UHGV virus genome: UHGV-0114363
Source of the DNA: a virus
Length of the DNA stretch: 29,434 nucleotides
Strand: one strand, 5' to 3'
Shown in pieces: positions 1 through 29,209 of this stretch. The translations under genes and the position numbers were made by a program. The notes beneath the pieces are model-generated. The model was not told the origin of the DNA, made no database searches, and saw only the letters and a list, made by a program, of their open reading frames with translations. How positions within the stretch are numbered: the stretch's first letter is position 1; every line of letters begins with the position of its first letter.

Positions 1-81
1 TTGCCCACCTCAATTTTAACTGATTATTGATATTGAAAACTCGTACTTTTAACTGATACAGATATTTAGGAAACCATAAAT

Positions 82-447
82 TTATTTGTCCAAGATTCTA
101 TCCATAATATTTCTTAGTTCTTGTCTGGTTGATTCTATTTTAGCAAGCAACGTTTTGATCAATGAGGGTGAAAAATCAACTGTGCGTGGATCGTTAGCTA
201 ACCACAGTTTAAGTAACCCACCAAGTCGACCAAGATCAGCATTTACTCGGCTAAGCTCTACAACCTGTTCAATATCTACAATAGACTCAACCTGATAACC
301 CATTGCTACTTTACGAATGAAGCTCGCTACACTTAAGCCAGATGCTTCTGCATTTTCCTGGATTTGCGCTTTTTCATCTGGCAAACAATAAACTTTAATT
401 GGTGTACTATTTTTTCTAGTCTGAGAAACGGTCATATCATTCTCCAT
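82..447 (-). CDS. NikA/MobC-like ribbon-helix-helix relaxosome accessory (mobilization) protein
   Basis: 121-aa ORF; segment KVYCLPDEKAQIQENAEASGLSVASFIRKVAMG...LGRLGGLLK resembles the RHH core of plasmid NikA/MobC-type oriT-binding proteins (recollection of R64 NikA pattern). A GAGGTG Shine-Dalgarno at the extreme left edge (minus sense) suggests the next gene, plausibly a relaxase, starts just off-window. Confidence 0.5.
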   Translation of the reverse strand: MENDMTVSQTRKNSTPIKVYCLPDEKAQIQENAEASGLSVASFIRKVAMGYQVESIVDIEQVVELSRVNADLGRLGGLLKLWLANDPRTVDFSPSLIKTLLAKIESTRQELRNIMDRILDK

Positions 448-515
448 ACAGGCGGTAGCCGATCAGCCTCGCAGAGCAGGACTCCGTTGAGCAGCCCAGC
501 TGCTAATAAGAGAAG

Positions 516-553
516 GTAAAGTAGAAGCACCGTTTACGGTGGGCCTACTTTAC
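516..553. repeat. Inverted repeat GTAAAGTAG / CTACTTTAC enclosing palindrome ACCGTTTACGGT; candidate oriT or operator element
   Basis: Perfect 9-bp arms at 516-524 and 545-553 with nested palindrome at 529-540; lies about 70 bp upstream of the NikA/MobC-like start codon; no flanking T-tract so not an intrinsic terminator. Confidence 0.4.
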
Positions 554-584
554 ATGTCCTGCCCTACATTTGCCGTTGTGAATC

Positions 585-623
585 TGTGTACGTATTGTGT
601 ATTCCTGTGTACTCAGTGTGTTT
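585..623. repeat. Four helically phased TGTGT(A/T) direct repeats (candidate protein-binding array)
   Basis: TGTGT cores start at 585, 596, 606 and 617 (spacing 11, 10, 11 bp) in the intergenic region between the AlpA-like and NikA/MobC-like genes. Confidence 0.4.
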
Positions 624-717
624 TCCTAAAGCATTTGTGCAGGATTAGTAGTGTAAAAATGTGCAGCATATGTGTTTATTGGAAGGGAAATTATTTGAAT
701 GACCCTAAGAAATATTT

Positions 718-1011
718 TTATTCTCGCGGCTTGGGTTTTGGCGGCCTGCCACGTTTCCTTTGAAACCTATTTATCTCTTTCGCTATATCGTCATTTTCTG
801 TCTTTGACTCAACAGATTTATCTATCCAATCCTTAACATCTTCTCTACGCCAGAGAAGACGTTTATTACCGGGAAGACGGCATCTTGGTGGAAGACATTT
901 TGGATTTCGCGTTGCATCACTGCGGATACTTTTTACAGTTTTCTTTAATGCAAAAGCCAACTCTTCAACGGTTATAAGTTCTGGCATAACTGATTTCATC
1001 GAAGAACCCAT
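718..1011 (-). CDS. AlpA-family helix-turn-helix regulator / excisionase-like protein with C-terminal AT-hook
   Basis: 97-aa ORF; LITVEELAFALKKTVKSIRS...LLWRREDVKDWI matches the AlpA/Xis-type HTH pattern; C-terminal KRGRPPKPKP is an AT-hook-like basic tail. Start could be 1011 or 999. Confidence 0.6.
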   Translation of the reverse strand: MGSSMKSVMPELITVEELAFALKKTVKSIRSDATRNPKCLPPRCRLPGNKRLLWRREDVKDWIDKSVESKTENDDIAKEINRFQRKRGRPPKPKPRE

Positions 1012-1033
1012 CTCTCAGTAGAAATTTGAGGAT

Positions 1034-1061
1034 TTTAGCGGCTAAAATTTTAGCCGCTAAA
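1034..1061. promoter_or_regulatory. 28-bp perfect palindrome TTTAGCGGCTAAAATTTTAGCCGCTAAA (candidate operator)
   Basis: Arms 1034-1047 and 1048-1061 are exact reverse complements; sits 23-50 bp upstream of the AlpA-like start codon. Confidence 0.5.
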
Positions 1062-1311
1062 GTTTGCTAACCAACGTTATGAATTGAGAATAATTAAAAC
1101 TTACTGGCAAAAAGAATAATGTCAACAGGATTTTTATTCATCGGATTTTTACTCCATATGAAATTGGTTTTATTGACCGATTTCTGAATGACACTAAGGT
1201 TTTAATAATTCCTTTAATCTTTTTGGTTATATAAAAGGTTAAAGATCAGGTTAGAGAGGTGTGGAAAAGCGATATATTCATTTGTATATTATGACAATTT
1301 TAAATTATATC

Positions 1312-1372
1312 CGTACCTCAAATGTCATGAAAGCGTACCTCATATGTCATAAAGGCGTACCTCATATGTCAT
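1312..1372. repeat. Three iteron-like direct repeats with 22-bp phase (core CGTACCTCA(A/T)ATGTCAT)
   Basis: 17-bp cores at 1312-1328, 1334-1350 and 1356-1372; copies 2 and 3 identical, copy 1 differs at one base; followed by several hundred bp of very AT-rich non-coding DNA. Confidence 0.6.
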
Positions 1373-1460
1373 ATAATAAAAAATAAGCAAACAAGTTATA
1401 CACAATATTATTCACAGAATCTGTGGATAAATACACAGATTATACATGATAAAATAGATT

Positions 1461-1659
1461 GTTTAGCTAAACTAAATAGCAATAAATAAAATGAAACAAA
1501 ATGTAAATAACAGAGAGTTGTAGATAACTTATAAATTTGGTTAGCTAACCTTTATAAGAAACACTGTTTGTAAAAGATTCATTTCTGACAACGGATATAT
1601 CGAAATTTAGTAAGTAAAATGCCACAGCTAAATCTTTTATATCATTTGTTTAGCTATAC
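1461..1659. promoter_or_regulatory. Three dispersed palindromic sites with TTAGCTA core (candidate operators)
   Basis: GTTTAGCTAAAC at 1461-1472 (perfect palindrome), GGTTAGCTAACC at 1539-1550 (perfect palindrome), GTTTAGCTATAC at 1648-1659 (one mismatch); the TTTAGC half-site also occurs in the 28-bp palindrome at 1034-1061. A CACAGAATCTGTG palindrome lies at 1413-1425. Confidence 0.45.
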
Positions 1660-1974
1660 TATTTTTACTAAGGGTTATGTATATCTAAACTACAAAAACA
1701 GCAATGCAAAAGATAAACGGGTAACAATCGTAGAAAAGCTTTGTTGCTGAGGGGTTACCCTCATTGGAAACCGGCTTGAGATAAGTATCATATGAGGATA
1801 TCAAATCCGACTGGTGAGGCCAGGTTTGATAATTTGAAGCGCTGGACGTAGCGTAGATGCCACAATAGAGGAGACAATAGTAAATTAAATTATAAGATAA
1901 ATGCAGATTTTTGTTTCGCTATGAAGTTATCACTGAAGATAAAGTATTCTAAGATAGATGAATGTGAGGTTGCC

Positions 1975-2235
1975 ATGACAACGATGAAAGCTAGACCCAG
2001 TTCTGTTGCGGATATTCTTTTAAATGAGTATTTGAAACCTTTAGCTATGTCTTCACGTGACTTAGCTAATTTGATGGGAGTACCTTATAGCAGAATTGAC
2101 GATATATTACGACACTCTAAAAATATAAGTAATAGAGAGGGGGAATTACTTTCTAAAATCTTCAATACTGATAGCGATTTTTGGATAAAACTTCAAGAAA
2201 ACTATATAAATCATACATGCAAATTCCATAAATAG
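1975..2235 (+). CDS. HigA-family antitoxin-like XRE helix-turn-helix protein (solitary)
   Basis: PSSVADILLNEYLKPLAMSSRDLANLMGVPYSRIDDILRHSKNISNREGELLSKIFNTDSDFWIKLQ matches the HigA-type HTH pattern; GAGGT Shine-Dalgarno 4 nt before the ATG at 1975. No toxin-sized ORF on either side. Confidence 0.6.
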   Translation: MTTMKARPSSVADILLNEYLKPLAMSSRDLANLMGVPYSRIDDILRHSKNISNREGELLSKIFNTDSDFWIKLQENYINHTCKFHK

Positions 2236-2499
2236 TGCATAAACGCTAACTTAAGGCATATATTATTTGTACTACGCCGTTGTATTAAAGAGAGATATCA
2301 AGCAACAAAAATCAACTATAATAGGTAAAAAATCAGTATGAAGGAATTATCACAATCTGCACGATGGTTCTAATATAAATTTAGTAAAATAAAACATAAA
2401 TCATTTCCGTATAAAAAGATGGCCAGGTCTTTATCATCGACCCAGCCAATTAGTAAAGGATTTTTCATTTCAAACTCATTAAACCTTAGGCATAAAACC

Positions 2500-4989
2500 T
2501 TAATGTTCAATATCTATTTGATTATCAATTTGAATAATGTTTTGAATCTCACTGTAAATATCAATGTTCTCATCTGGTACATCTATGCTAACCAATAAAC
2601 TATATTTAACATTGTTAATATAGCGATCCTGCGCAGTACGATATTTCCACCATCCACCAACAGGATAGACAGCGATAGTATTCATCTCTGTTAAATCTGC
2701 AGCACTGCCTTTCCAAGCATCTGAGTGTAATGAACCTCTAACTCTGAGTTGAGGCCCCAGAAACCATCCTGACGCATCTCCTTCAGGTCCATTGTATTCT
2801 TCATTATTCGCATTACGGTTTATCGAAGCACGGAAATTTTCAAGGGTCTGATTAGGTCTAATAACTGCAAATCTCAATCCATGAGATTGATACGAATATT
2901 GTCGTCTGAATCCTTTTTGACTTGGATTAGGTTCAATAAAATACGACAATGTGATTCTTAAAATAACATTTGTTTCTGGTGGTAGTAAGCGAAGAGCTTC
3001 TACGGGCCAAGGGAGTGAAAACAGATGCATTTCATTCAATGTAGGATCAGTAGAACCATCTCTTTTAAATGGGGTGATTTCCGACTGAGATATTAATGTA
3101 AGTGCATTTTCCGCACTATGCATTGCTCGATTTAAATTAGGTACTCCATAACCAACCATCCTTAATAAGCTTTCTTTAGCCGATTTTGGTGTCCCCTGTG
3201 CACGTTCTGTTCTATATCGTTCGTGCATACGACTAGTCCATCTTGCTGTATGAACAAGTAATCCCCTAATAGTTTCAGGCCAATATTCTGGGTACTGAGC
3301 CATTAGCATAGCAGCATGTTTTGATACTAGAGCACAGGCTGCGCTAGTATCTGAATTAACTTCAAACAATTGATTTGTTGCCCTGCCAGAGGTTGTGAGC
3401 AAAGATAATTCAATTGTATTTGTGATTTCATCACGGCTAGGTGATATAAGTTTGTTTCCGCCTTCCTCTACTAAATCTGGCTTATATGGGGCATGCTTTT
3501 TCCATCCCCAGGATACCGATGACCGAGATGACGGTGCAATATCTTCTGACATAGCGAAAGGAGACCAACCATCATATTCGCGGTCTGTATGGGTTGTTTT
3601 ATCAGTATACGCCCCTACAGTTAATGCATTCCAAGATTGAGCAGGATCTTCAATTTCAGCAAGAGTCACTGAATCCCAATAATCTAATTCTAAATTTGTA
3701 GGTTGAGAGTTACCCGCAGAAATTATAAATAATCTGCGGATATCATCCTCTAAACCAAAACTAAACTTGTCAATCTCTGCAGACCATGAGGACGGTTGGC
3801 CTCCAAGAGTATTAGGCTCTGCTGTCACAGCAAGCGAATAAACTCTGCGCCAGTTCGGGTTTTCCAGCTCCAGACGACTTGACGTTCCTGTAGTAATAGC
3901 TCCATAAAGATTAGGATCATTAGTAGCTCTTGGAGGTAGTATCCTTCCTGATTCGATATTGTACGGAATCGAAATGTCCTGATCGTTCAATAAAACAGAC
4001 AGGAAATCTCCATAAACACATAGTCCTGCTTGTCTGGAACCGTGGTCATTATAAGGCCTTTGATTATAATCATCGAAAAGTGGCCAAGATATGTCCCAAG
4101 CAGCTGCCAGTGATGAGTTAGTAAATCTAGATAATAGTGGATTATTGTAGTTAACACCTGTATCTAATATACAAACAGAAACATCAGCTTCATTGTTACG
4201 CGTAATTCTTGCAGCAACATTTTCTGCCCACTGATGCTGTTCTGTAGGTAAGGAATTAACTATAACTGATATATCATCCCTCGCTGATCTTATCTCTTTT
4301 AAATTAGATATTAATTCAGGACAAACTTTTAATCTCGATAGACTCGTACGGATAAGAACAACAGTAGTATCGAAAAAATTAATAGAAGTATTCCCGAGCC
4401 TTCCATTAATTCTTTCGCATAAACGCCGAGCAATATTTAGCACATCCTCCTTATTACCCTTAAGCCAAAGCTCAAACCACTTTTCAACACCGTGATCATC
4501 CGGAATAAGATCTTTTTTATCTGTCCAGAAAGAAGTTATATCTGCTAACTCGATATTTTGTATGCTATCAATTAACAAATGATTTCTAGGGAACTCGATA
4601 CCATCCTTCGATGGATTCAAATAGTCATTTATTTTTTTAGTGAATTTAGTTCTGTCATTTTCATTAATGTATATAATCGCAGTTTCACGATTATTTGATT
4701 TAACTAAAGAACAAAGCTTGAAATAAGTATTATCGATTTTATCTATAGGAAGATCGCATTGTTCAAAACTGATTAGCCTAACATAAATCCCTTTTTCATC
4801 AGTAACAGGGGGAAGCCTCGGTCTTTCATCATAATGATTCAATATACGGCTATACTGATTTAGTAATGATATACCATGTACCGCTCGATCACGAGCTGGG
4901 ACTTGGGGACTACGACCATTGCTCCTAGAGCGATAGTTTTCGGGGGAAACATAGCCGTTTAATAAAATATGCCTCTTGTTGGTAGTCAT
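2500..4989 (-). CDS. Subtilisin-like serine peptidase (S8 family), 829 aa, with extra N- and C-terminal domains
   Basis: Catalytic residues in canonical subtilase order: Asp in VCILDTGVN (about residue 276), His in YNDHGSRQ (316), oxyanion Asn in FIISAGNSQ (427), Ser in NSDTSAACALV (549); ALTVGAYT motif present. AGGGA Shine-Dalgarno overlaps the 3' end of the upstream ATPase gene (8-nt gap). Confidence 0.8.
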   Translation of the reverse strand: MTTNKRHILLNGYVSPENYRSRSNGRSPQVPARDRAVHGISLLNQYSRILNHYDERPRLPPVTDEKGIYVRLISFEQCDLPIDKIDNTYFKLCSLVKSNNRETAIIYINENDRTKFTKKINDYLNPSKDGIEFPRNHLLIDSIQNIELADITSFWTDKKDLIPDDHGVEKWFELWLKGNKEDVLNIARRLCERINGRLGNTSINFFDTTVVLIRTSLSRLKVCPELISNLKEIRSARDDISVIVNSLPTEQHQWAENVAARITRNNEADVSVCILDTGVNYNNPLLSRFTNSSLAAAWDISWPLFDDYNQRPYNDHGSRQAGLCVYGDFLSVLLNDQDISIPYNIESGRILPPRATNDPNLYGAITTGTSSRLELENPNWRRVYSLAVTAEPNTLGGQPSSWSAEIDKFSFGLEDDIRRLFIISAGNSQPTNLELDYWDSVTLAEIEDPAQSWNALTVGAYTDKTTHTDREYDGWSPFAMSEDIAPSSRSSVSWGWKKHAPYKPDLVEEGGNKLISPSRDEITNTIELSLLTTSGRATNQLFEVNSDTSAACALVSKHAAMLMAQYPEYWPETIRGLLVHTARWTSRMHERYRTERAQGTPKSAKESLLRMVGYGVPNLNRAMHSAENALTLISQSEITPFKRDGSTDPTLNEMHLFSLPWPVEALRLLPPETNVILRITLSYFIEPNPSQKGFRRQYSYQSHGLRFAVIRPNQTLENFRASINRNANNEEYNGPEGDASGWFLGPQLRVRGSLHSDAWKGSAADLTEMNTIAVYPVGGWWKYRTAQDRYINNVKYSLLVSIDVPDENIDIYSEIQNIIQIDNQIDIEH

Positions 4990-4997
4990 TTCATCCC

Positions 4998-5984
4998 TTA
5001 TTGTCTACTTTCTTGCCTACGCTTTATAGCCTTTACTAACAAATCGGTTGTAATATTGTTTGCATTATAAAGCACTGATTCTTTGGCAGCATCTTCACTT
5101 GCTCGCGTGATCTCCGCTGCACTTAGACCTGAAGCACTATCAATGATCTCACTCCAAAATAAATTACCGAGGTCAAAGACAGCGAGTCTCTGTTCAATAA
5201 GATTCCTGATTAGATTATCCTCAGGCCTTGTGAACGGTATAATATCGTCAAATCGTCTATATAAGGCGCGATCTAAAAGCTCTGGATGATTGGTTGCAGC
5301 TAAAACTATGCTCTCAGAATCATCCTGCTCTACAAACATTAAAAAAGAATTTAAGACCCTACGAATTTCTCCAACGTCATTCTGAGCGCCACGCTGAGTT
5401 CCTATAGCATCGAACTCGTCAAAAAAATATACAGCTCTTGTTTGCCGTATGTGGTCAAAAATTAAACGCAGCTTAGCTGCAGTTTCACCCATATAGCGAG
5501 TGATTAGATTATCTAAGACGACTGTATAAAGTGGTAGCTTTAACTCTGTAGCAATGACTGATGCGGACATTGTCTTACCAGTACCGGGAGGACCAGTGAA
5601 AAGAATTTTTCTTCTTGGAATAAGCCCAAACTCAGAAAGTTTATCTTTCTGTTTTTGTTCAAGCAGAACCTGATTCAATCTTTCCCTAACGCTTCCAGAA
5701 ATCACCAGATCTTGAAGATGTACTGGCTTGTTCGTTTGCTCAAGTAACCCCTTAAGATCACCATCAGGCTGCTTAACAAATGGTGTAAGTCGTTTTTCAA
5801 CTAAACCTACAGAACTCGTTGTTTTCTGATTTTTATCAACTAAGTTTTTTATATCATTAGCAAGCTTATGATGACCTTGCCTTGCTTCCTTAGCTGCCAC
5901 CTGCAAAGCAATAGAAAAGAAACGCTGATCATCACGATCAACGTGGCTTTTCAATAAAGCTTTGATCTGCTCTGCAGTAGCCAT
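4998..5984 (-). CDS. AAA+ ATPase (classical AAA clade), 328 aa
   Basis: Walker A GPPGTGKT (131-138), Walker B VYFFDEFD (about 186-192), sensor-1 LAATNHPELLD (about 229-238) and RRFD (243-246); roughly 100-aa helical N-terminal region; first gene of a two-gene operon with the S8 peptidase. Confidence 0.85.
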   Translation of the reverse strand: MATAEQIKALLKSHVDRDDQRFFSIALQVAAKEARQGHHKLANDIKNLVDKNQKTTSSVGLVEKRLTPFVKQPDGDLKGLLEQTNKPVHLQDLVISGSVRERLNQVLLEQKQKDKLSEFGLIPRRKILFTGPPGTGKTMSASVIATELKLPLYTVVLDNLITRYMGETAAKLRLIFDHIRQTRAVYFFDEFDAIGTQRGAQNDVGEIRRVLNSFLMFVEQDDSESIVLAATNHPELLDRALYRRFDDIIPFTRPEDNLIRNLIEQRLAVFDLGNLFWSEIIDSASGLSAAEITRASEDAAKESVLYNANNITTDLLVKAIKRRQESRQ

Positions 5985-6448
5985 AACCCCTCATACTCCC
6001 TTGTTCTCTTGTTGCAAAGTTTACTATAAATTCATTTAGTTCGACATCGTTACCTACCTGCTCATTACAGGAAAGTAATACCTTCATGAGCGTATCATCA
6101 ATGATCAAAGTGTAATCAAACACCTAGGCATAGTACCTTCACTACGTGAACTGTATCACTCATTGTTATGTAACCTGAGTGTCCCTTTCTGGCACTTAGC
6201 TCTATCGGATAATGTATTTAAGCTGTTAATTTATAAGATTTTTCATCACTAAACTGTCTTTCATGCAACGCATCGATAAGGTCAACACATTACGTTTATA
6301 AGGAAGTAGTTTGTTTAGCGTAATGATGCAAATGCTGACCAATTAGCTTTGCCACAATTTTGCCACACCTACAACGCGCAAAATTGCACATTAGTGTTGA
6401 ACAAAGCAAAATACTGCAATAGTAACTTGATGATTTTACGAGAAAAGA

Positions 6449-6494
6449 TGGTGCCGATAATAGGAGTCGAACCTACGACCTTCGCATTACGAAT
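6449..6494 (-). other. Partial tRNA-Thr(CGU) 3' end (46 nt): anticodon loop through CCA; att core repeat
   Basis: Minus-strand sequence ATTCGTAATGCGAAGGTCGTAGGTTCGACTCCTATTATCGGCACCA has a CGT anticodon loop, GGTTCGACTCC T-arm and terminal CCA; no D-arm or 5' acceptor half follows, so it is a 3' fragment typical of an integrase att duplication. Matches my recollection of enterobacterial thrW. Confidence 0.7.
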
Positions 6495-6655
6495 CTGTAG
6501 CACCAATCATAACTATCTGTTTTAGCAAGCATTAACCGCATTCACTAAGTTATAGTTGATGGCACAAACAGAAAGTTGATGCATGATGTTTTCATGCGTA
6601 TGTCACAAATACGGCACAACAATCTTCAAATATGTAGACACACATCCACAGGAGA

Positions 6656-6691
6656 GCACAAAGCCTTGCAATACAGTGCAAAGCTTTGTGC
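6656..6691. terminator. Long hairpin (15-bp stem, one mismatch, 6-nt loop) downstream of the tail fiber assembly gene
   Basis: GCACAAAGCCTTGCA-ATACAG-TGCAAAGCTTTGTGC; only a weak T-run follows (GTTTTGT at about 6697-6703) so terminator function is uncertain. Confidence 0.35.
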
Positions 6692-6719
6692 GTATCAGTT
6701 TTGTCCTGTGCGCCGGATG

Positions 6720-7325
6720 TCATCTGGCCTGAACTTCCGGAGGCGTAGGCCATTCAATATCCGGTGCGCTGGCGGTATCAACGCCCTCCAGCGCATCCAG
6801 ATAATCAAGCCAGGCATTATATTGTTCTTTTTCTGCGTCCTTCAGGCGACCCATTGCTGCTTTACCAGGCCATTGCTTACCATTCATAAAGTCATTGGCC
6901 TGGCTAATCAGCGCCTGTAGTTTTGTTGCCGCCACAGAAATATCATATGCGCGCTGAGCTTCGGGATCGGCAACCCATTTATTACCATCCCATTTATCAA
7001 ACTTTGTAGTTGGTGCTTCAAAAGTAAAGCCTTCACGCAACGGTCCAATATATTCGATAGTCACCGGCTTCCCGTTACTGGTGGTGTATGCTGTTTCTCC
7101 ACGATGGTCTTCTTTAAGCACCCACTCAGATCCAGAAAAAATAAATACCTTCCCTCCTGCTTCGGCCCCTGGTTCTATCGCCGTAGAGCATCCGGGCATA
7201 CTGACACCGATGTTAATAAACTCGTCAGACCATCCCATATATTCAGAAGTCACAGCGTCGTAGTAATAACAGCGGATTTCACCCGGTTCTGTTGCCAGTC
7301 CGTTTACATCGAAAACAGGTTTCAT
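6720..7325 (-). CDS. Tail fiber assembly protein (Tfa)
   Basis: C-terminal EKEQYNAWLDYLDALEGVDTASAPDIEWPTPP is the conserved Tfa C-terminal signature; start overlaps the fiber gene stop. Confidence 0.8.
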   Translation of the reverse strand: MKPVFDVNGLATEPGEIRCYYYDAVTSEYMGWSDEFINIGVSMPGCSTAIEPGAEAGGKVFIFSGSEWVLKEDHRGETAYTTSNGKPVTIEYIGPLREGFTFEAPTTKFDKWDGNKWVADPEAQRAYDISVAATKLQALISQANDFMNGKQWPGKAAMGRLKDAEKEQYNAWLDYLDALEGVDTASAPDIEWPTPPEVQAR

Positions 7326-8083
7326 TATTTAGCCCTTACAAGAAAGTTGAATGCAATATTTCTTGGGCGGCTTTCCGTGGATGTTCTGGCAACCCTCGAT
7401 AAATCAAAATTGAATGTAGAAGTTGATACGGTTCCGCCTGGTGCCGGGGGGGCCAGATTGCCCTGAACAACGCTGCGAGAAAATACCCCCAACGCATCTG
7501 TATTTACCCCTGTATAAAGATCAACGAGATAACCAGTAACATTCTGAATGGCGTCTCCCTGCGGTGAAAGCAGGGTTCGCCCATTATCTATCCCACGTCC
7601 ATCATCCCAGACACGCAGAAACTCTCCTCGCAGATCTGGCAATTTCAGGCCCGGCCAAACAAGGGCCAATTTTGGGTAAGTGGTAGGGGAAAATGTTGAG
7701 TCGTTAAACTTAAGGAACACCATGTCGGCCCATTCCGGCATCACGGTATTTGGCATGGCAGAAGACGGCCAAAAAAATGGAACTCCTATCGGTGGTGCAC
7801 CTGCTCCTAAACCAAGGTTTGTGGTAATCGCTGTCGCCAGCTTTGCCACCAGTCCATCAACGTCACCATCATCGAGCGCGTCCAGTTCGGCGTTCGCGAT
7901 AAACTGCCCCAGTACAGCCGCCATCGTCGACGGTTGGCGCAGCGCTTTACTGACCTGTGCGCTGGATGCTTTACCCGAGGAGAATCCTTTCTTCAGTGCG
8001 GTTAGCGTCTCCCATTCCTCCTGCGAGGTAACATTTGCATTAGCATCTGTCGCAAACGCTTTAAAATCATTAGTTCCAGCCAT
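7325..8083 (-). CDS. Tail fiber protein
   Basis: Position between baseplate genes and Tfa; Gly/Ala-rich central region; start at 8083 overlaps the upstream stop by one base (TAATG). Confidence 0.65.
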   Translation of the reverse strand: MAGTNDFKAFATDANANVTSQEEWETLTALKKGFSSGKASSAQVSKALRQPSTMAAVLGQFIANAELDALDDGDVDGLVAKLATAITTNLGLGAGAPPIGVPFFWPSSAMPNTVMPEWADMVFLKFNDSTFSPTTYPKLALVWPGLKLPDLRGEFLRVWDDGRGIDNGRTLLSPQGDAIQNVTGYLVDLYTGVNTDALGVFSRSVVQGNLAPPAPGGTVSTSTFNFDLSRVARTSTESRPRNIAFNFLVRAK

Positions 8084-27860: not shown

Positions 27861-28517
27861 TTAAGCCAGTCGCAGCATGCACGTCCCGCACGCTCTGGCA
27901 ATATCGAGATGAGCAACCTCCGCTGGCTGATTCGCCGCATCAATCATTTCCTGCACGTCCCGGCTTGCACCGTAACGGCGAACCACGCCCACAAACTCTT
28001 CCACGTCATGACCGCGCAGCTTCAGCTTTGGCTGCCCTTCCTGCGTGAACTTCGGCGCACCAAATTCATCTGTCGCTTGGCAGATGTGATAAAGCTCGTG
28101 CTCTATCAGCGCGCAGAATTCCAGATCGGAACATTGCGAGCAGTAATCGGCGGCCAGCGTGATGATGAACTGCGGCACCCTGCCGAACCATTCATACATC
28201 TGCTGCTCCATCCGCGCTTTCTGCCAGCCTCCGGCCCGCATTGCCACTTCTTCCGCCTGCCCCAGCACGGAACGCCCTTTCTTCTCGAAAGCGTTCGATG
28301 CCCAGAGAAAGCACAGATCCGCTTCAAGCAAATGCTGGTGGTCATGGTTGTAGAGGTCACCCTCATCGCTCAGGATGTGCTGATTCAGCCACTCGCCAAC
28401 GTCATTAGCGGGCATAATGCTGATGTACGGCTTCGGGTCAGGTGGCATCGTAAAATGCGCTGGTGGGTGTGGTCTGTTCATGAATAATTCCAGTGCTCCA
28501 TTATCGAAGCCCCTCAA
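27861..28517 (-). CDS. HExxH motif protein (putative phage zinc metallopeptidase)
   Basis: ALIEHELYHICQ contains an HExxH zinc-binding signature; located between Rha and the packaging genes, a typical moron/accessory position. Confidence 0.5.
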   Translation of the reverse strand: MRGFDNGALELFMNRPHPPAHFTMPPDPKPYISIMPANDVGEWLNQHILSDEGDLYNHDHQHLLEADLCFLWASNAFEKKGRSVLGQAEEVAMRAGGWQKARMEQQMYEWFGRVPQFIITLAADYCSQCSDLEFCALIEHELYHICQATDEFGAPKFTQEGQPKLKLRGHDVEEFVGVVRRYGASRDVQEMIDAANQPAEVAHLDIARACGTCMLRLA

Positions 28518-28541
28518 TGAAGGGCTTCTGTAATGCCGCGA

Positions 28542-29060
28542 TCAGCCAATAAGTAATTCCGGCTGCGTTACCTGCATGATGTGCTCATGTTCGAGCTCCA
28601 GGACGCGCTTCTCTTTCTTCCGCTCGTTCATCAAACGGCTTCCGATCGTGCCTTTCAGCTTTGAGCGCGTTTCTTTGATGGCGTAGCGATGCTGCAATTC
28701 TTCACCCATCGCCATGCGCCGGTTTAGCTGCTCGGCCATCCAGTTGAAGGCATTGATGTAACACTCCTTCACTGCGGCAGCTGTTTTGCCAGTGAATCCC
28801 ATCACTAGCATCATGCATCCGTCGCGGGTGATGTTATACATAGGCTGAACATCGCCATTTTTATCAATGAAATCAATGGGCGCAAAATTGCGCTGGGTGA
28901 AGTCATCGGAGCATTTCAGGTTACGTATGGCACGCAAAACGTCTTTGTGTCGCTTGCCAAAGTAATCCGCCACCTTGAGTGATGTGGTGATTATCTTGTT
29001 GTCGAGGGTCGTGACCATTTCGCGGAAGTCGAAGGCCGGAATAACTGACGGATTATTCAT
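28542..29060 (-). CDS. Rha-family phage regulatory protein
   Basis: N-terminus from MNNPSVIPAFDFREMVTTLDNKIITTSLKVADYFGKRHKDVLRAIRNL matches the Rha pattern; start set at 29060. Confidence 0.7.
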   Translation of the reverse strand: MNNPSVIPAFDFREMVTTLDNKIITTSLKVADYFGKRHKDVLRAIRNLKCSDDFTQRNFAPIDFIDKNGDVQPMYNITRDGCMMLVMGFTGKTAAAVKECYINAFNWMAEQLNRRMAMGEELQHRYAIKETRSKLKGTIGSRLMNERKKEKRVLELEHEHIMQVTQPELLIG

Positions 29061-29209
29061 AGCGTCTTTACCTTTTAGAAAGTGAGCCTGTCTCACAGAA
29101 AAGCCGCCCCGAGATGGTCGCCACCATATACGGCAGTTCTCAGGCTCAACTTTCTGAAAGGCTCGGGTGATGTAATATGCGCGTGAGATGCGCTGTGAAA
29201 TTCAGATGT

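What the first reader, a model, noticed from the sequence alone, without database searches (positions are those of the whole stretch)
2500..5984. Two-gene AAA+ ATPase + S8 subtilase operon at the island edge: candidate antiviral or conflict system
A 328-aa AAA+ ATPase (Walker A GPPGTGKT, Walker B FFDEFD, sensor-1 AATNHPELLD, RRFD) is followed 8 nt later by an 829-aa protein with a complete subtilase catalytic set in canonical order (D276 in ILDTG, H316 in DHGS, N427 in SAGN, S549 in DTSAA). The protease also has about 270 extra N-terminal and about 230 extra C-terminal residues of unknown function. The protease Shine-Dalgarno overlaps the ATPase stop, implying coupled expression. The pair sits in AT-rich accessory DNA directly beside a tRNA att core and a prophage, a typical defence-island position. 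An NTPase plus protease-effector pair is the architecture I recall for the IetAS defence system (Gao et al. 2020), but homology is unverified; this could be a divergent member or an undescribed system. The unassigned flanking domains of the protease are candidate sensor or substrate-recognition modules.
Basis: partly seen in the sequence, partly recalled or inferred. Interest (0 to 1): 0.85.

Follow-up and report, generated by a model that had tools for sequence, protein, structure and literature searches.

The report
Known IetAS protease–ATPase toxin–antitoxin/defence pair
This two-gene AAA+ ATPase plus subtilisin-like protease operon is a clear member of the already described IetAS/SgiAT family, a toxin–antitoxin module that also acts as an abortive-infection phage defence, so it is real but ordinary.

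Summary
Two tightly coupled minus-strand genes (ietA 5984-4998, 328 aa; ietS 4989-2500, 829 aa; 8-nt gap) carry every named motif. They lie in AT-rich DNA next to a 46-nt tRNA-Thr 3' fragment and a myovirus prophage.

The remembered IetAS resemblance is correct. PADLOC models hit both proteins (IetA 5.5e-77, IetS 2.9e-34). Both align end to end with the pair on a pTiC58-type Ti plasmid (IetA 50%, IetS 35% identity; same lengths and gene order).

The "extra" N- and C-terminal regions of the protease are not additions. They are conserved across a large family (907 cluster representatives at E<=1e-30, nearly all listed ones 800-850 aa). A confident AlphaFold model (pLDDT 91.9) best matches pro-form subtilases: prodomain, catalytic domain, C-terminal beta domain.

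IetA is a classic-clade AAA+ ATPase with a conserved aromatic-hydrophobic-glycine pore loop.

This locus belongs to the founding plasmid/island subtype. That subtype has been shown to be a toxin–antitoxin stabiliser. It is only distantly related to the E. coli IetAS variants tested against phages. Anti-phage activity here is therefore inferred, and the family mechanism remains unknown.

Verdict: new member of a known kind, low interest.

The parts
4998..5984 (-). ietA: 328-aa classic-clade AAA+ ATPase (antitoxin/regulator). N-terminal helical region is about aa 1-100; the AAA module is about aa 105-325.
   Evidence: ORF. PADLOC IetA PDLC02196 5.5e-77 over aa 2-325. Pfam AAA 1.8e-29. 50% identity over 324 aa to the 328-aa IetA of pTi1D1460. 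Closest solved relatives are Cdc48/p97 D2 and NSF, E about 1e-43.
5571..5594 (-). Walker A motif GPPGTGKT (aa 131-138, K137)
   Evidence: G131, P133, G134, G136, K137 and T138 are invariant in the 9-sequence IetA alignment.
5487..5495 (-). Pore-loop-1 motif Y164-M165-G166 (aromatic-hydrophobic-Gly)
   Evidence: Alignment A3: Y/F-M-G in this subtype, F-M-G in the Ti-plasmid protein, F-L-G in E24377A, L-L-G in the prophage type. G166 is invariant. Reading it as a substrate-threading loop rests on general AAA+ knowledge and is an inference.
5409..5426 (-). Walker B motif FFDEFD (aa 187-192)
   Evidence: D189, E190, F191 and D192 are invariant.
4990..4997 (-). 8-nt ietA-ietS spacer; the purine-rich AAGGGA overlaps the ietA stop codon
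   Evidence: The sequence is TAAGGGATGAAATG. Homologous loci have gaps of 8-9 nt, the Ti plasmid has 3 nt and E24377A has 9 nt.
4195..4989 (-). ietS N-terminal region (aa 1-265): a long helix plus two alpha/beta modules. Somewhere in the model there is a subtilase-prodomain-like fold; I place it in this region by inference.
3115..4194 (-). ietS S8 subtilase catalytic domain (about aa 266-625), with D276 (4162-4164), H316 (4042-4044), oxyanion N427 (3709-3711) and S549 (3343-3345)
2500..3114 (-). ietS C-terminal beta-rich domain (aa 626-829) plus the stop codon; contains the family-wide TLSYFIEPNP and GGWWK motifs
   Evidence: Model secondary structure. S682, Y700, W742, G752, P776, G779 and W780 are invariant across 134 sequences. 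Aligned through to the end of the Ti-plasmid IetS. No Pfam or PDB sequence match. Best fold matches are subtilases that carry C-terminal beta domains (Tk-SP, KP-43, PCSK9).
5985..6448 (-). Upstream non-coding region, presumed to hold the promoter and any regulatory sites
   Evidence: Lies between the tRNA fragment and the ietA start. The sigma-70 consensus scan found no site here, so the promoter is not identified.
6449..6494 (-). 3' 46 nt of tRNA-Thr(CGU), thrW: the attachment core shared by the island and the adjacent prophage
   Evidence: Sequence ATTCGTAATGCGAAGGTCGTAGGTTCGACTCCTATTATCGGCACCA. Identity with ECONIH4 ends at 6494, inside its annotated tRNA-Thr. No complete tRNA in the window.

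Best explanation
The locus is an IetAS-family module of the founding pTiC58/SgiAT subtype. IetS is a cytoplasmic subtilisin-like serine protease that acts as the toxin or effector. IetA is a classic AAA+ ATPase, made from the same tightly coupled transcript, that keeps IetS harmless.

The module is cargo at the tRNA-proximal edge of a mobilizable island integrated at thrW.

Most likely working (inferred). IetS is built like a pro-form subtilase: a prodomain-like N-terminal module, a catalytic domain and a C-terminal beta domain. IetA has a conserved pore loop, so it probably forms a ring that grips or remodels IetS, using ATP to hold it inactive. If that control fails, free IetS cleaves cell proteins and stops growth. 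Control could fail through a phage protein, through phage-induced shut-off, or through loss of the island.

This outcome both aborts infection and penalises loss of the island.

Shown here: identity, architecture, motifs, family membership and mobile context.

Shown in the literature for relatives: IetS/SgiT toxicity, neutralisation by IetA/SgiA, abortive infection, and the requirement for protease activity.

Inferred: the zymogen-like switch, the way IetA acts on IetS, and anti-phage activity of this particular subtype.
For: Family membership:
- PADLOC IetA 5.5e-77 and IetS 2.9e-34 (aa 94-822).
- Best NCBIfam hit for both proteins is IteA/IteS_antiphage.
- Against the pair on a pTiC58-type Ti plasmid, IetA is 50% identical over 324 aa and IetS is 35% identical over aa 7-828. 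Sizes match (328 and 836 aa) and the gene order is the same.
- An AAA gene of 327-336 aa lies 8-9 nt upstream of the protease in all four homologous contexts retrieved (Pseudomonas, Nitrosospira, Klebsiella, Salmonella). Their neighbours include integrase, Abi_C, methyltransferase, Fic, reverse transcriptase and AlpA genes.

Protein features:
- Catalytic residues are invariant or nearly so.
- No signal peptide or transmembrane segment.
- The model (pLDDT 91.9, pTM 0.84) best matches ProN-Tk-SP, PCSK9, pro-subtilisin E and separate PCSK9 prodomain chains.
- The IetA pore loop and arginines R243/R244 are conserved.

Literature:
- IetAS was first described as a plasmid-stabilising toxin–antitoxin pair with a protease toxin and an ATPase antitoxin (PMC13069673, ref. 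61 = Yamamoto 2009).
- The SGI1 homologue SgiT kills E. coli in under 30 min, and SgiA neutralises it and stabilises the island (PMC5006074).
- IetAS from B. cereus behaves as an abortive-infection system triggered by SPbeta yosG (10.1101/2022.08.27.505566).
- Protease activity is required for defence, and ietA mutants could not be constructed (PMC13069673).

Consistent with toxin–antitoxin logic, other E. coli copies have ietS interrupted by IS1 or IS3, or retain only ietA.
Against: - Scores are below NCBIfam's equivalog cut-offs (221.6 against 510 bits; 38.8 against 900 bits).
- The E. coli IetAS types actually tested against phages are only distant relatives. The ECOR52/prophage type shares 25% identity over about 250 aa of IetS (E 8e-7). 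The SNF2-associated E24377A type shares 23% (IetS) and 35% (IetA).
- I found no phage-defence test of the pTiC58/SgiAT subtype.
- SgiAT gave no post-segregational killing from its own promoter (PMC5006074).
- No promoter was identified.
- The mechanism of the whole family is stated to be unknown (PMC13069673).
Confidence: 0.85

Rival explanations
1. The module is purely an addiction (post-segregational killing) system. Its selected role would be to stabilise the thrW island, as shown for pTiC58 and SGI1, and it would give no meaningful phage defence in E. coli.
For: This locus belongs to the subtype for which only toxin–antitoxin and stabilisation phenotypes are published (PMC5006074; PMC13069673 ref. 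61). It sits inside an integrative element that carries traJ/nikA and, just beyond the window, trbJ and trbL. Orphan ietA copies and IS-disrupted ietS copies exist. The E. coli variants tested against phages are distant.
Against: Three other IetAS subtypes have been tested against phages (PMC13069673; 10.1101/2022.08.27.505566; 10.1101/2022.08.21.504612). Two gave protection on their own, and the ECOR52 system had only limited activity alone. Homologues of this subtype sit beside Abi_C, a methyltransferase, Fic and reverse-transcriptase genes. Toxin–antitoxin and abortive-infection roles are not mutually exclusive. SgiAT showed no post-segregational killing from its native promoter (PMC5006074).
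Confidence: 0.3
2. IetA and IetS cooperate as a two-component ATP-dependent protease. On this view IetA unfolds and feeds selected (phage or host) proteins to IetS, much as ClpX feeds ClpP or as FtsH works, rather than restraining IetS.
For: IetA is closest to unfoldases of the classic clade (Cdc48/p97, PAN, FtsH) and keeps the aromatic-hydrophobic-Gly pore loop. Expression of the two genes is tightly coupled. Protease activity is required for defence in tested relatives (PMC13069673).
Against: The protease alone is toxic, and the ATPase relieves that toxicity in relatives (PMC5006074; PMC13069673). ietA mutants could not be built (PMC13069673). Subtilases are open-cleft enzymes, not chambered proteases. 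The model is a compact monomer-like fold.
Confidence: 0.12
3. The pair is a housekeeping or secreted protease together with a dedicated chaperone, and is unrelated to genetic conflict.
For: S8 proteases are commonly secreted and often need foldases or propeptides. The AAA domain also scores against FtsH and PAN models.
Against: No signal peptide or transmembrane segment. Present in 34 of 5426 complete E. coli genomes. GC is 0.38-0.40 against a 0.535 neighbour. The flanks are variable and mobile. There is specific full-length homology to IetAS.
Confidence: 0.02

Closest known systems
IetA/IetS of the Agrobacterium Ti plasmid pTiC58 (Yamamoto et al. 2009, J Bacteriol 191:4656; cited in PMC13069673 and PMC5006074)
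   Same: Two genes in the order ATPase then protease. Sizes are nearly identical (328/829 aa here, 328/836 aa there). IetA is 50% identical and IetS is 35% identical end to end, including both non-catalytic regions. All catalytic and ATPase motifs are shared. Both are carried on a mobile element.
   Different: A gammaproteobacterial chromosomal island rather than an alphaproteobacterial plasmid. The gap is 8 nt rather than 3 nt. I compared against pTi1D1460, which has the same length as pTiC58 and protein accessions from the same block; pTiC58's own ietAS was not aligned directly. The function of this copy is untested.
SgiA/SgiT (S026/S025) of Salmonella Genomic Island 1 (PMC5006074)
   Same: An integrative mobilizable island in Enterobacteriaceae. 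Its reported identity to the pTiC58 pair (50% and 36%) matches what I find here (50% and 35%). The pairing is strict, and the antitoxin gene occurs more often than the toxin gene.
   Different: SGI1 integrates at trmE, not thrW. The SGI1 sequence was not in any collection I could search, so direct identity to SgiAT was not measured.
Anti-phage IetAS/'IteAS' of Gao et al. 2020, as modelled by NCBIfam NF042959 and NF042956, and the ECOR52-type pair in lambdoid prophages (10.1101/2022.08.21.504612)
   Same: An AAA+ ATPase followed by an S8 protease. Both have the same family label in PADLOC, and these NCBIfam models are the best hits for both proteins.
   Different: Deeply divergent. IetS matches only 25% over about 250 aa (E 8e-7), and IetA is 38% identical over the AAA core only. 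Sizes differ (384 and 754 aa) and the genes overlap. The location is a prophage. Scores fall far below the equivalog cut-offs.
ietHAS, the SNF2-helicase-associated IetAS (PMC13069673), as in E. coli E24377A next to type III restriction-modification genes
   Same: Homologous IetA (35%) and IetS (23% across the whole length), with a 9-nt gap.
   Different: No SNF2 helicase or restriction-modification genes flank the pair here; the upstream neighbour is the tRNA attachment core. The IetS there is 795 aa.
Pro-form subtilases with C-terminal beta domains (Tk-SP 3afg, PCSK9, pro-subtilisin E, KP-43)
   Different: IetS is cytoplasmic, has roughly 170 additional N-terminal residues, shares 12-20% sequence identity, and is partnered with an ATPase. 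Whether it is autoprocessed is unknown.
Classic-clade AAA+ unfoldases (Cdc48/p97 D2, NSF, PAN, FtsH)
   Same: Walker A and B motifs, sensor 1, paired arginines and a pore-loop motif. E is about 1e-43 to p97/Cdc48.
   Different: A single AAA module with a roughly 100-aa family-specific N-terminal helical region. There is no fused protease or second ring. All curated cut-offs for those families are missed by a wide margin.

Membership tests
IetAS (founding pTiC58/SgiAT type) | An AAA+ ATPase homologous to IetA along its whole length | tested here: met
   50% identity over 324 of 328 aa, E 2e-108. PADLOC IetA 5.5e-77.
IetAS (founding pTiC58/SgiAT type) | A subtilisin-like protease homologous to IetS along its whole length, including the non-catalytic ends | tested here: met
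   35% identity over aa 7-828, E 6e-155. PADLOC IetS 2.9e-34 over aa 94-822.
IetAS (founding pTiC58/SgiAT type) | Intact Asp-His-Ser triad with the oxyanion Asn, and intact Walker A and B motifs | tested here: met
   D276, H316, N427, S549, K137 and D189/E190 are present and conserved.
IetAS (founding pTiC58/SgiAT type) | Adjacent genes, ietA upstream of ietS, on the same strand and tightly spaced | tested here: met
   8-nt gap. The same arrangement occurs in the Ti plasmid and in four homologous contexts.
IetAS (founding pTiC58/SgiAT type) | The protease is toxic and the ATPase neutralises it | not testable with these tools
   Shown only for relatives (PMC5006074; Yamamoto 2009 as cited in PMC13069673). 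Indirect support: copies with disrupted ietS and copies that keep only ietA.
IetAS (founding pTiC58/SgiAT type) | Stabilises the mobile element that carries it | not testable with these tools
   The location inside a thrW island is compatible with this role.
Anti-phage IteA/IteS equivalogs (NCBIfam NF042959 and NF042956; Gao 2020 type) | Score above the curated equivalog cut-offs | tested here: not met
   221.6 against 510 bits, and 38.8 against 900 bits. A genuine iteAS pair (E. coli 144) is only marginally similar in the protease.
Anti-phage IetAS (functional class) | Protects against phage, with dependence on the protease active site | not testable with these tools
   Reported for other subtypes only (PMC13069673; 10.1101/2022.08.27.505566; 10.1101/2022.08.21.504612).
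ietHAS (SNF2-associated variant) | An SNF2-family helicase gene immediately upstream of ietA | tested here: not met
   Upstream of ietA lie 464 bp of non-coding DNA and the tRNA fragment. Compare E24377A.
SgiAT of SGI1 | Direct sequence identity to S026/S025 | not tested
Only the indirect comparison through pTiC58 identities was possible (PMC5006074).

The most novel reading that the evidence does not exclude
In this founding subtype, IetS would be an intracellular zymogen. Its tandem N-terminal prodomain-like module would block the active site, and the IetA ring would use its pore loop and ATP to keep that plug engaged, or to re-engage it. A phage trigger, or a drop in IetA supply, would then convert the pro-form into an active, cell-killing protease. 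That would be an ATP-driven zymogen switch, a regulatory logic not yet described for toxin–antitoxin or abortive-infection systems. It would also supply the missing mechanism for the whole IetAS family.
Probability: 0.2. Interest if true: 0.6.

Novelty: new member of a known kind. Interest (0 to 1): 0.2.

Why it matters
The locus matters little on its own. It is an unremarkable member of a family that defence-system annotators already label. Both proteins have exact copies on at least 1000 public contigs each.

Three modest points are worth keeping:
1. "IetAS" covers at least three deeply divergent subtypes. The founding subtype, to which this locus belongs, has toxin–antitoxin evidence but no published phage test that I could find.
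2. The protease has the overall organisation of a pro-form subtilase, and the ATPase keeps a substrate-threading pore loop. Together these give a concrete, testable hypothesis for a family whose mechanism is still stated to be unknown.
3. RefSeq names both genes only generically, so annotation could be improved.

Tried and rejected
- The first AlphaFold run, on a shallow alignment of 46 sequences at 53-83% identity, was poor (pLDDT 63.9). It was replaced by a run on 134 sequences.
- Profile searches of the N-terminal (A5) and C-terminal (A4) regions against PDB sequences and Pfam found nothing significant.
- I looked for the ECOR52 ietAS cloning primers to see whether this exact system had been phage-tested. 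They are absent from the window and from E24377A. They map to a prophage-borne iteAS instead.
- Gao 2020 and Yamamoto 2009 are not held in the library, so both are cited second-hand.
- The B. cereus ietAS sequence in the supplement is truncated to 500 nt. Only a visual resemblance of the IetA N-terminus could be noted.
- The afdb50 fold library was unavailable.
- The sigma-70 scan found no promoter in 5985-6448.
- The tRNA scan found no full tRNA gene, only the 46-nt fragment.
- Literature searches found no mechanistic or structural paper on IetAS.
- No solved structure of either protein family appears in the PDB.
- I decided against using further large protein searches to look for the flanking domains in other architectures, because only the top 120 hits are listed and IetS proteins would fill that list.
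Full report
**Observation**

The window carries two minus-strand ORFs exactly as described: 5984..4998 (328 aa) and 4989..2500 (829 aa). All the quoted motifs are at the stated residues:
- Walker A GPPGTGKT at 131-138 (K137)
- Walker B FFDEFD at 187-192
- AATNHPELLD at 229-238 and RRFD at 243-246
- the subtilase set D276 (ILDTG), H316 (DHGS), N427 (SAGN) and S549 (DTSAA)

The junction reads TAAGGGATGAAATG. That is an 8-nt gap with a purine-rich stretch over the ietA stop codon.

Pfam confirms AAA (1.8e-29) and Peptidase_S8 (4.3e-54, residues 269-615).

The genes have GC 0.38-0.40. The DNA to their right has GC 0.535.

**Setting**

The window is Escherichia coli. Positions 1-6494 are 100% identical to a chromosomal island found in about 19 complete genomes.

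In strain ECONIH4 the same ietS-ietA pair lies directly against an intact tRNA-Thr gene upstream of proA. The island there continues with traJ, trbJ and trbL remnants.

In the window the identity stops at 6494. Positions 6449-6494 are the 3' 46 nt of tRNA-Thr(CGU), ending in CCA. ARAGORN correctly finds no complete tRNA.

Everything to the right is a SEN34/Omnitron-like myovirus prophage, 96% identical to Citrobacter phage Omnitron over 88% of its length. It has a tail-fibre assembly gene at 6720-7325.

Two mobile elements sit in tandem at thrW.

**What it is**

PADLOC models hit both proteins: IetA at 5.5e-77 across residues 2-325, and IetS at 2.9e-34 across residues 94-822. The best NCBIfam hits are IteA_antiphage and IteS_antiphage, although both score far below the equivalog cut-offs (221.6 against 510 bits; 38.8 against 900 bits).

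A tblastn search of plasmids found full-length relatives on Agrobacterium Ti plasmids. On pTi1D1460 the pair is a 328-aa ATPase followed, 3 nt later, by an 836-aa S8 peptidase. That plasmid is 214,233 bp, the same length as pTiC58 (NC_003065.3), and its protein accessions come from the same block.
- The ATPases are 50% identical over 324 residues.
- The proteases are 35% identical from residue 7 to residue 828.

These are the same figures that Huguet et al. report for SGI1's SgiA and SgiT against pTiC58 IetA and IetS (PMC5006074).

The locus is therefore a member of the founding IetAS/SgiAT type.

**Family size and conserved pairing**

A full HMMER scan of 1.84 billion cluster representatives finds 907 at E<=1e-30. 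Nearly all of the 150 listed are 800-850 aa and align end to end.

In the four homologous contexts I retrieved (five loci; Pseudomonas aeruginosa, Nitrosospira, Klebsiella and Salmonella), an AAA gene of 327-336 aa lies 8-9 nt upstream of the protease. The surrounding genes differ and are typical of mobile elements or defence islands: integrase, Abi_C, an N6/N4 methyltransferase, Fic, a reverse transcriptase, AlpA and MobA.

In E. coli the operon is rare. It occurs at >=99% identity in 34 of 5426 complete genomes, and a few of the 34 are incomplete:
- some copies have IS1 or IS3 inserted in ietS
- at least one strain keeps only ietA

This pattern fits a toxin gene paired with its antitoxin. 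It also matches the excess of SgiA over SgiT homologues noted in PMC5006074.

**"IetAS" is an umbrella**

I traced the E. coli variants that have been tested experimentally.

The ECOR52 cloning primers of Wu et al. (supplement) are absent from the window. They map to a lambdoid-prophage locus that PGAP names iteA/iteS, with proteins of 384 and 754 aa. Against that pair:
- the protease matches only 25% over about 250 residues (E 8e-7)
- the ATPase matches 38% over the AAA core

The E24377A locus lies between an SNF2 helicase gene and type III restriction-modification genes. This is the "ietHAS" arrangement of Liu et al. (PMC13069673). It is 23% (IetS) and 35% (IetA) identical to the pair here.

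A further variant of the same subtype as this locus sits in a yicC-dinD island of E. coli VG48B2.

So the window's pair is closer to the Agrobacterium founders than to either phage-tested E. coli variant. I found no phage test of this subtype.

**The flanking regions of the protease**

They are not lineage-specific additions. In a 134-sequence alignment with a mean column identity of 34%, invariant or near-invariant residues occur throughout:
- N-terminal region: E173 is invariant; W155, P163, W175, E232 and R234 are conserved in at least 90%
- C-terminal region: S682, Y700, W742, G752, P776, G779 and W780 are invariant; the LSYFIEP and GWW motifs are also conserved

Sequence profiles of either region find nothing in Pfam or among PDB sequences.

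An AlphaFold model built on a shallow alignment was poor (pLDDT 63.9). With the deep alignment it became confident (pLDDT 91.9, pTM 0.84).

Foldseek ranks unprocessed or prodomain-bearing subtilases first: ProN-Tk-SP at 3.9e-21 with 680 alignment columns, then PCSK9, pro-subtilisin E, EpiP, cucumisin with its propeptide, and fervidolysin.

The architecture is therefore prodomain-like module, catalytic domain, C-terminal beta domain, with about 170 further N-terminal residues. The tools do not report which residues align, so placing the prodomain-like fold at roughly residues 170-260 is my inference from the secondary-structure pattern.

Neither protein has a signal peptide or a transmembrane segment.

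No IetA or IetS structure is in the PDB.

**The ATPase**

IetA is closest to Cdc48/p97 D2, NSF and Afg2 (E about 1e-43), and to the PAN and FtsH models.

In an alignment of nine IetA proteins from all subtypes, the following are invariant: the Walker motifs, T231/N232/H233, R243/R244 and G166. The motif at 164-166 is Y/F-M/L-G in three subtypes and L-L-G in the prophage type.

In classic AAA+ unfoldases this is the substrate-gripping pore loop. That is established knowledge about the superfamily; its role here is an inference.

**How it most likely works**

The literature on relatives shows the following:
- IetAS was first described as a plasmid-stabilising toxin–antitoxin pair, with the protease as toxin and the ATPase as antitoxin (Yamamoto 2009, as cited in PMC13069673 and PMC5006074).
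- SgiT arrests E. coli within 30 min. SgiA relieves this in trans, and the pair stabilises SGI1 (PMC5006074).
- A B. cereus IetAS behaves as an abortive-infection system and becomes toxic when SPbeta yosG is co-expressed (10.1101/2022.08.27.505566).
- Protease activity is needed for defence and ietA mutants could not be constructed. The mechanism "remains unknown" (PMC13069673).

Combining this with the anatomy found here, my best account is as follows. IetA, made just ahead of IetS from one transcript, uses ATP to hold a zymogen-like IetS inactive. A phage cue, or loss of IetA supply when the island is lost or host expression is shut off, frees IetS. Free IetS then degrades cellular proteins and stops growth.

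The family assignment is secure. The restraint-and-release step and the role of the prodomain-like module are inferences. Anti-phage activity of this subtype is extrapolated from other subtypes.

**Rivals**

1. A pure addiction module with no defence role. This fits what is published for the subtype but is not exclusive of defence.
2. A cooperative unfoldase-protease machine. This fits the pore loop, but it conflicts with the protease being toxic alone and rescued by the ATPase.
3. A housekeeping or secreted protease. This is excluded by rarity, mobile context, base composition and the absence of export signals.

**Novelty and verdict**

This is a new but unremarkable member of a known kind. 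Both proteins have exact copies on at least 1000 public contigs each, under generic names. Existing defence-system models already recognise them.

Interest is low (0.2).

The only upside is the testable zymogen-switch idea for a family that still lacks a mechanism.

Noticed in passing
window 1921-2235 (+), with 1011-1921 upstream: A HigA-family HTH antitoxin-like ORF (so annotated in RefSeq for the identical island) has no HigB-like partner. No ORF of 30 aa or more with that character lies upstream. The 900 bp before it are very AT-rich (GC about 0.31) and nearly free of ORFs.
   Followed up: partly
window 82-447 (-) and 718-1011 (-): A NikA/TraJ-like relaxosome accessory protein (Pfam PF21983, 4.7e-24) and a small basic protein of unknown family. 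In ECONIH4 the island continues leftwards with trbJ and trbL, cut up by IS1 copies. The IetAS carrier therefore looks like a decayed conjugative or mobilizable element.
   Followed up: partly
window 6449-6494 (-): A 46-nt 3' fragment of tRNA-Thr(CGU), thrW, separates the island from the prophage. Two elements have used the same attachment site in tandem. The intact tRNA gene must lie beyond the far end of the prophage, outside the window.
   Followed up: yes
window 6495-29434: A SEN34/Omnitron-like myovirus prophage, 96% identical to Citrobacter phage Omnitron. The tail-fibre end (about 6495-7803) is not covered by that match, which suggests a swapped host-range module. Rha-family regulator and phage metallopeptidase genes lie at 27861-29096.
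   Followed up: partly
other E. coli genomes (hits H56, H57, H74): The identical operon occurs with IS1 or IS3/ISSen4 inserted, apparently within ietS, and in strain B27 only ietA survives. This suggests recurrent inactivation of the toxin gene.
   Followed up: no
[not shown]
   Followed up: partly
L003 (E. coli E24377A) and L009 (E. coli 144): E. coli carries at least three mutually distant IetAS subtypes in different niches: the thrW or yicC island type, a lambdoid-prophage type between the replication and lysis genes, and an SNF2 plus type III restriction-modification cluster type. RefSeq names only the prophage type iteA/iteS.
   Followed up: yes
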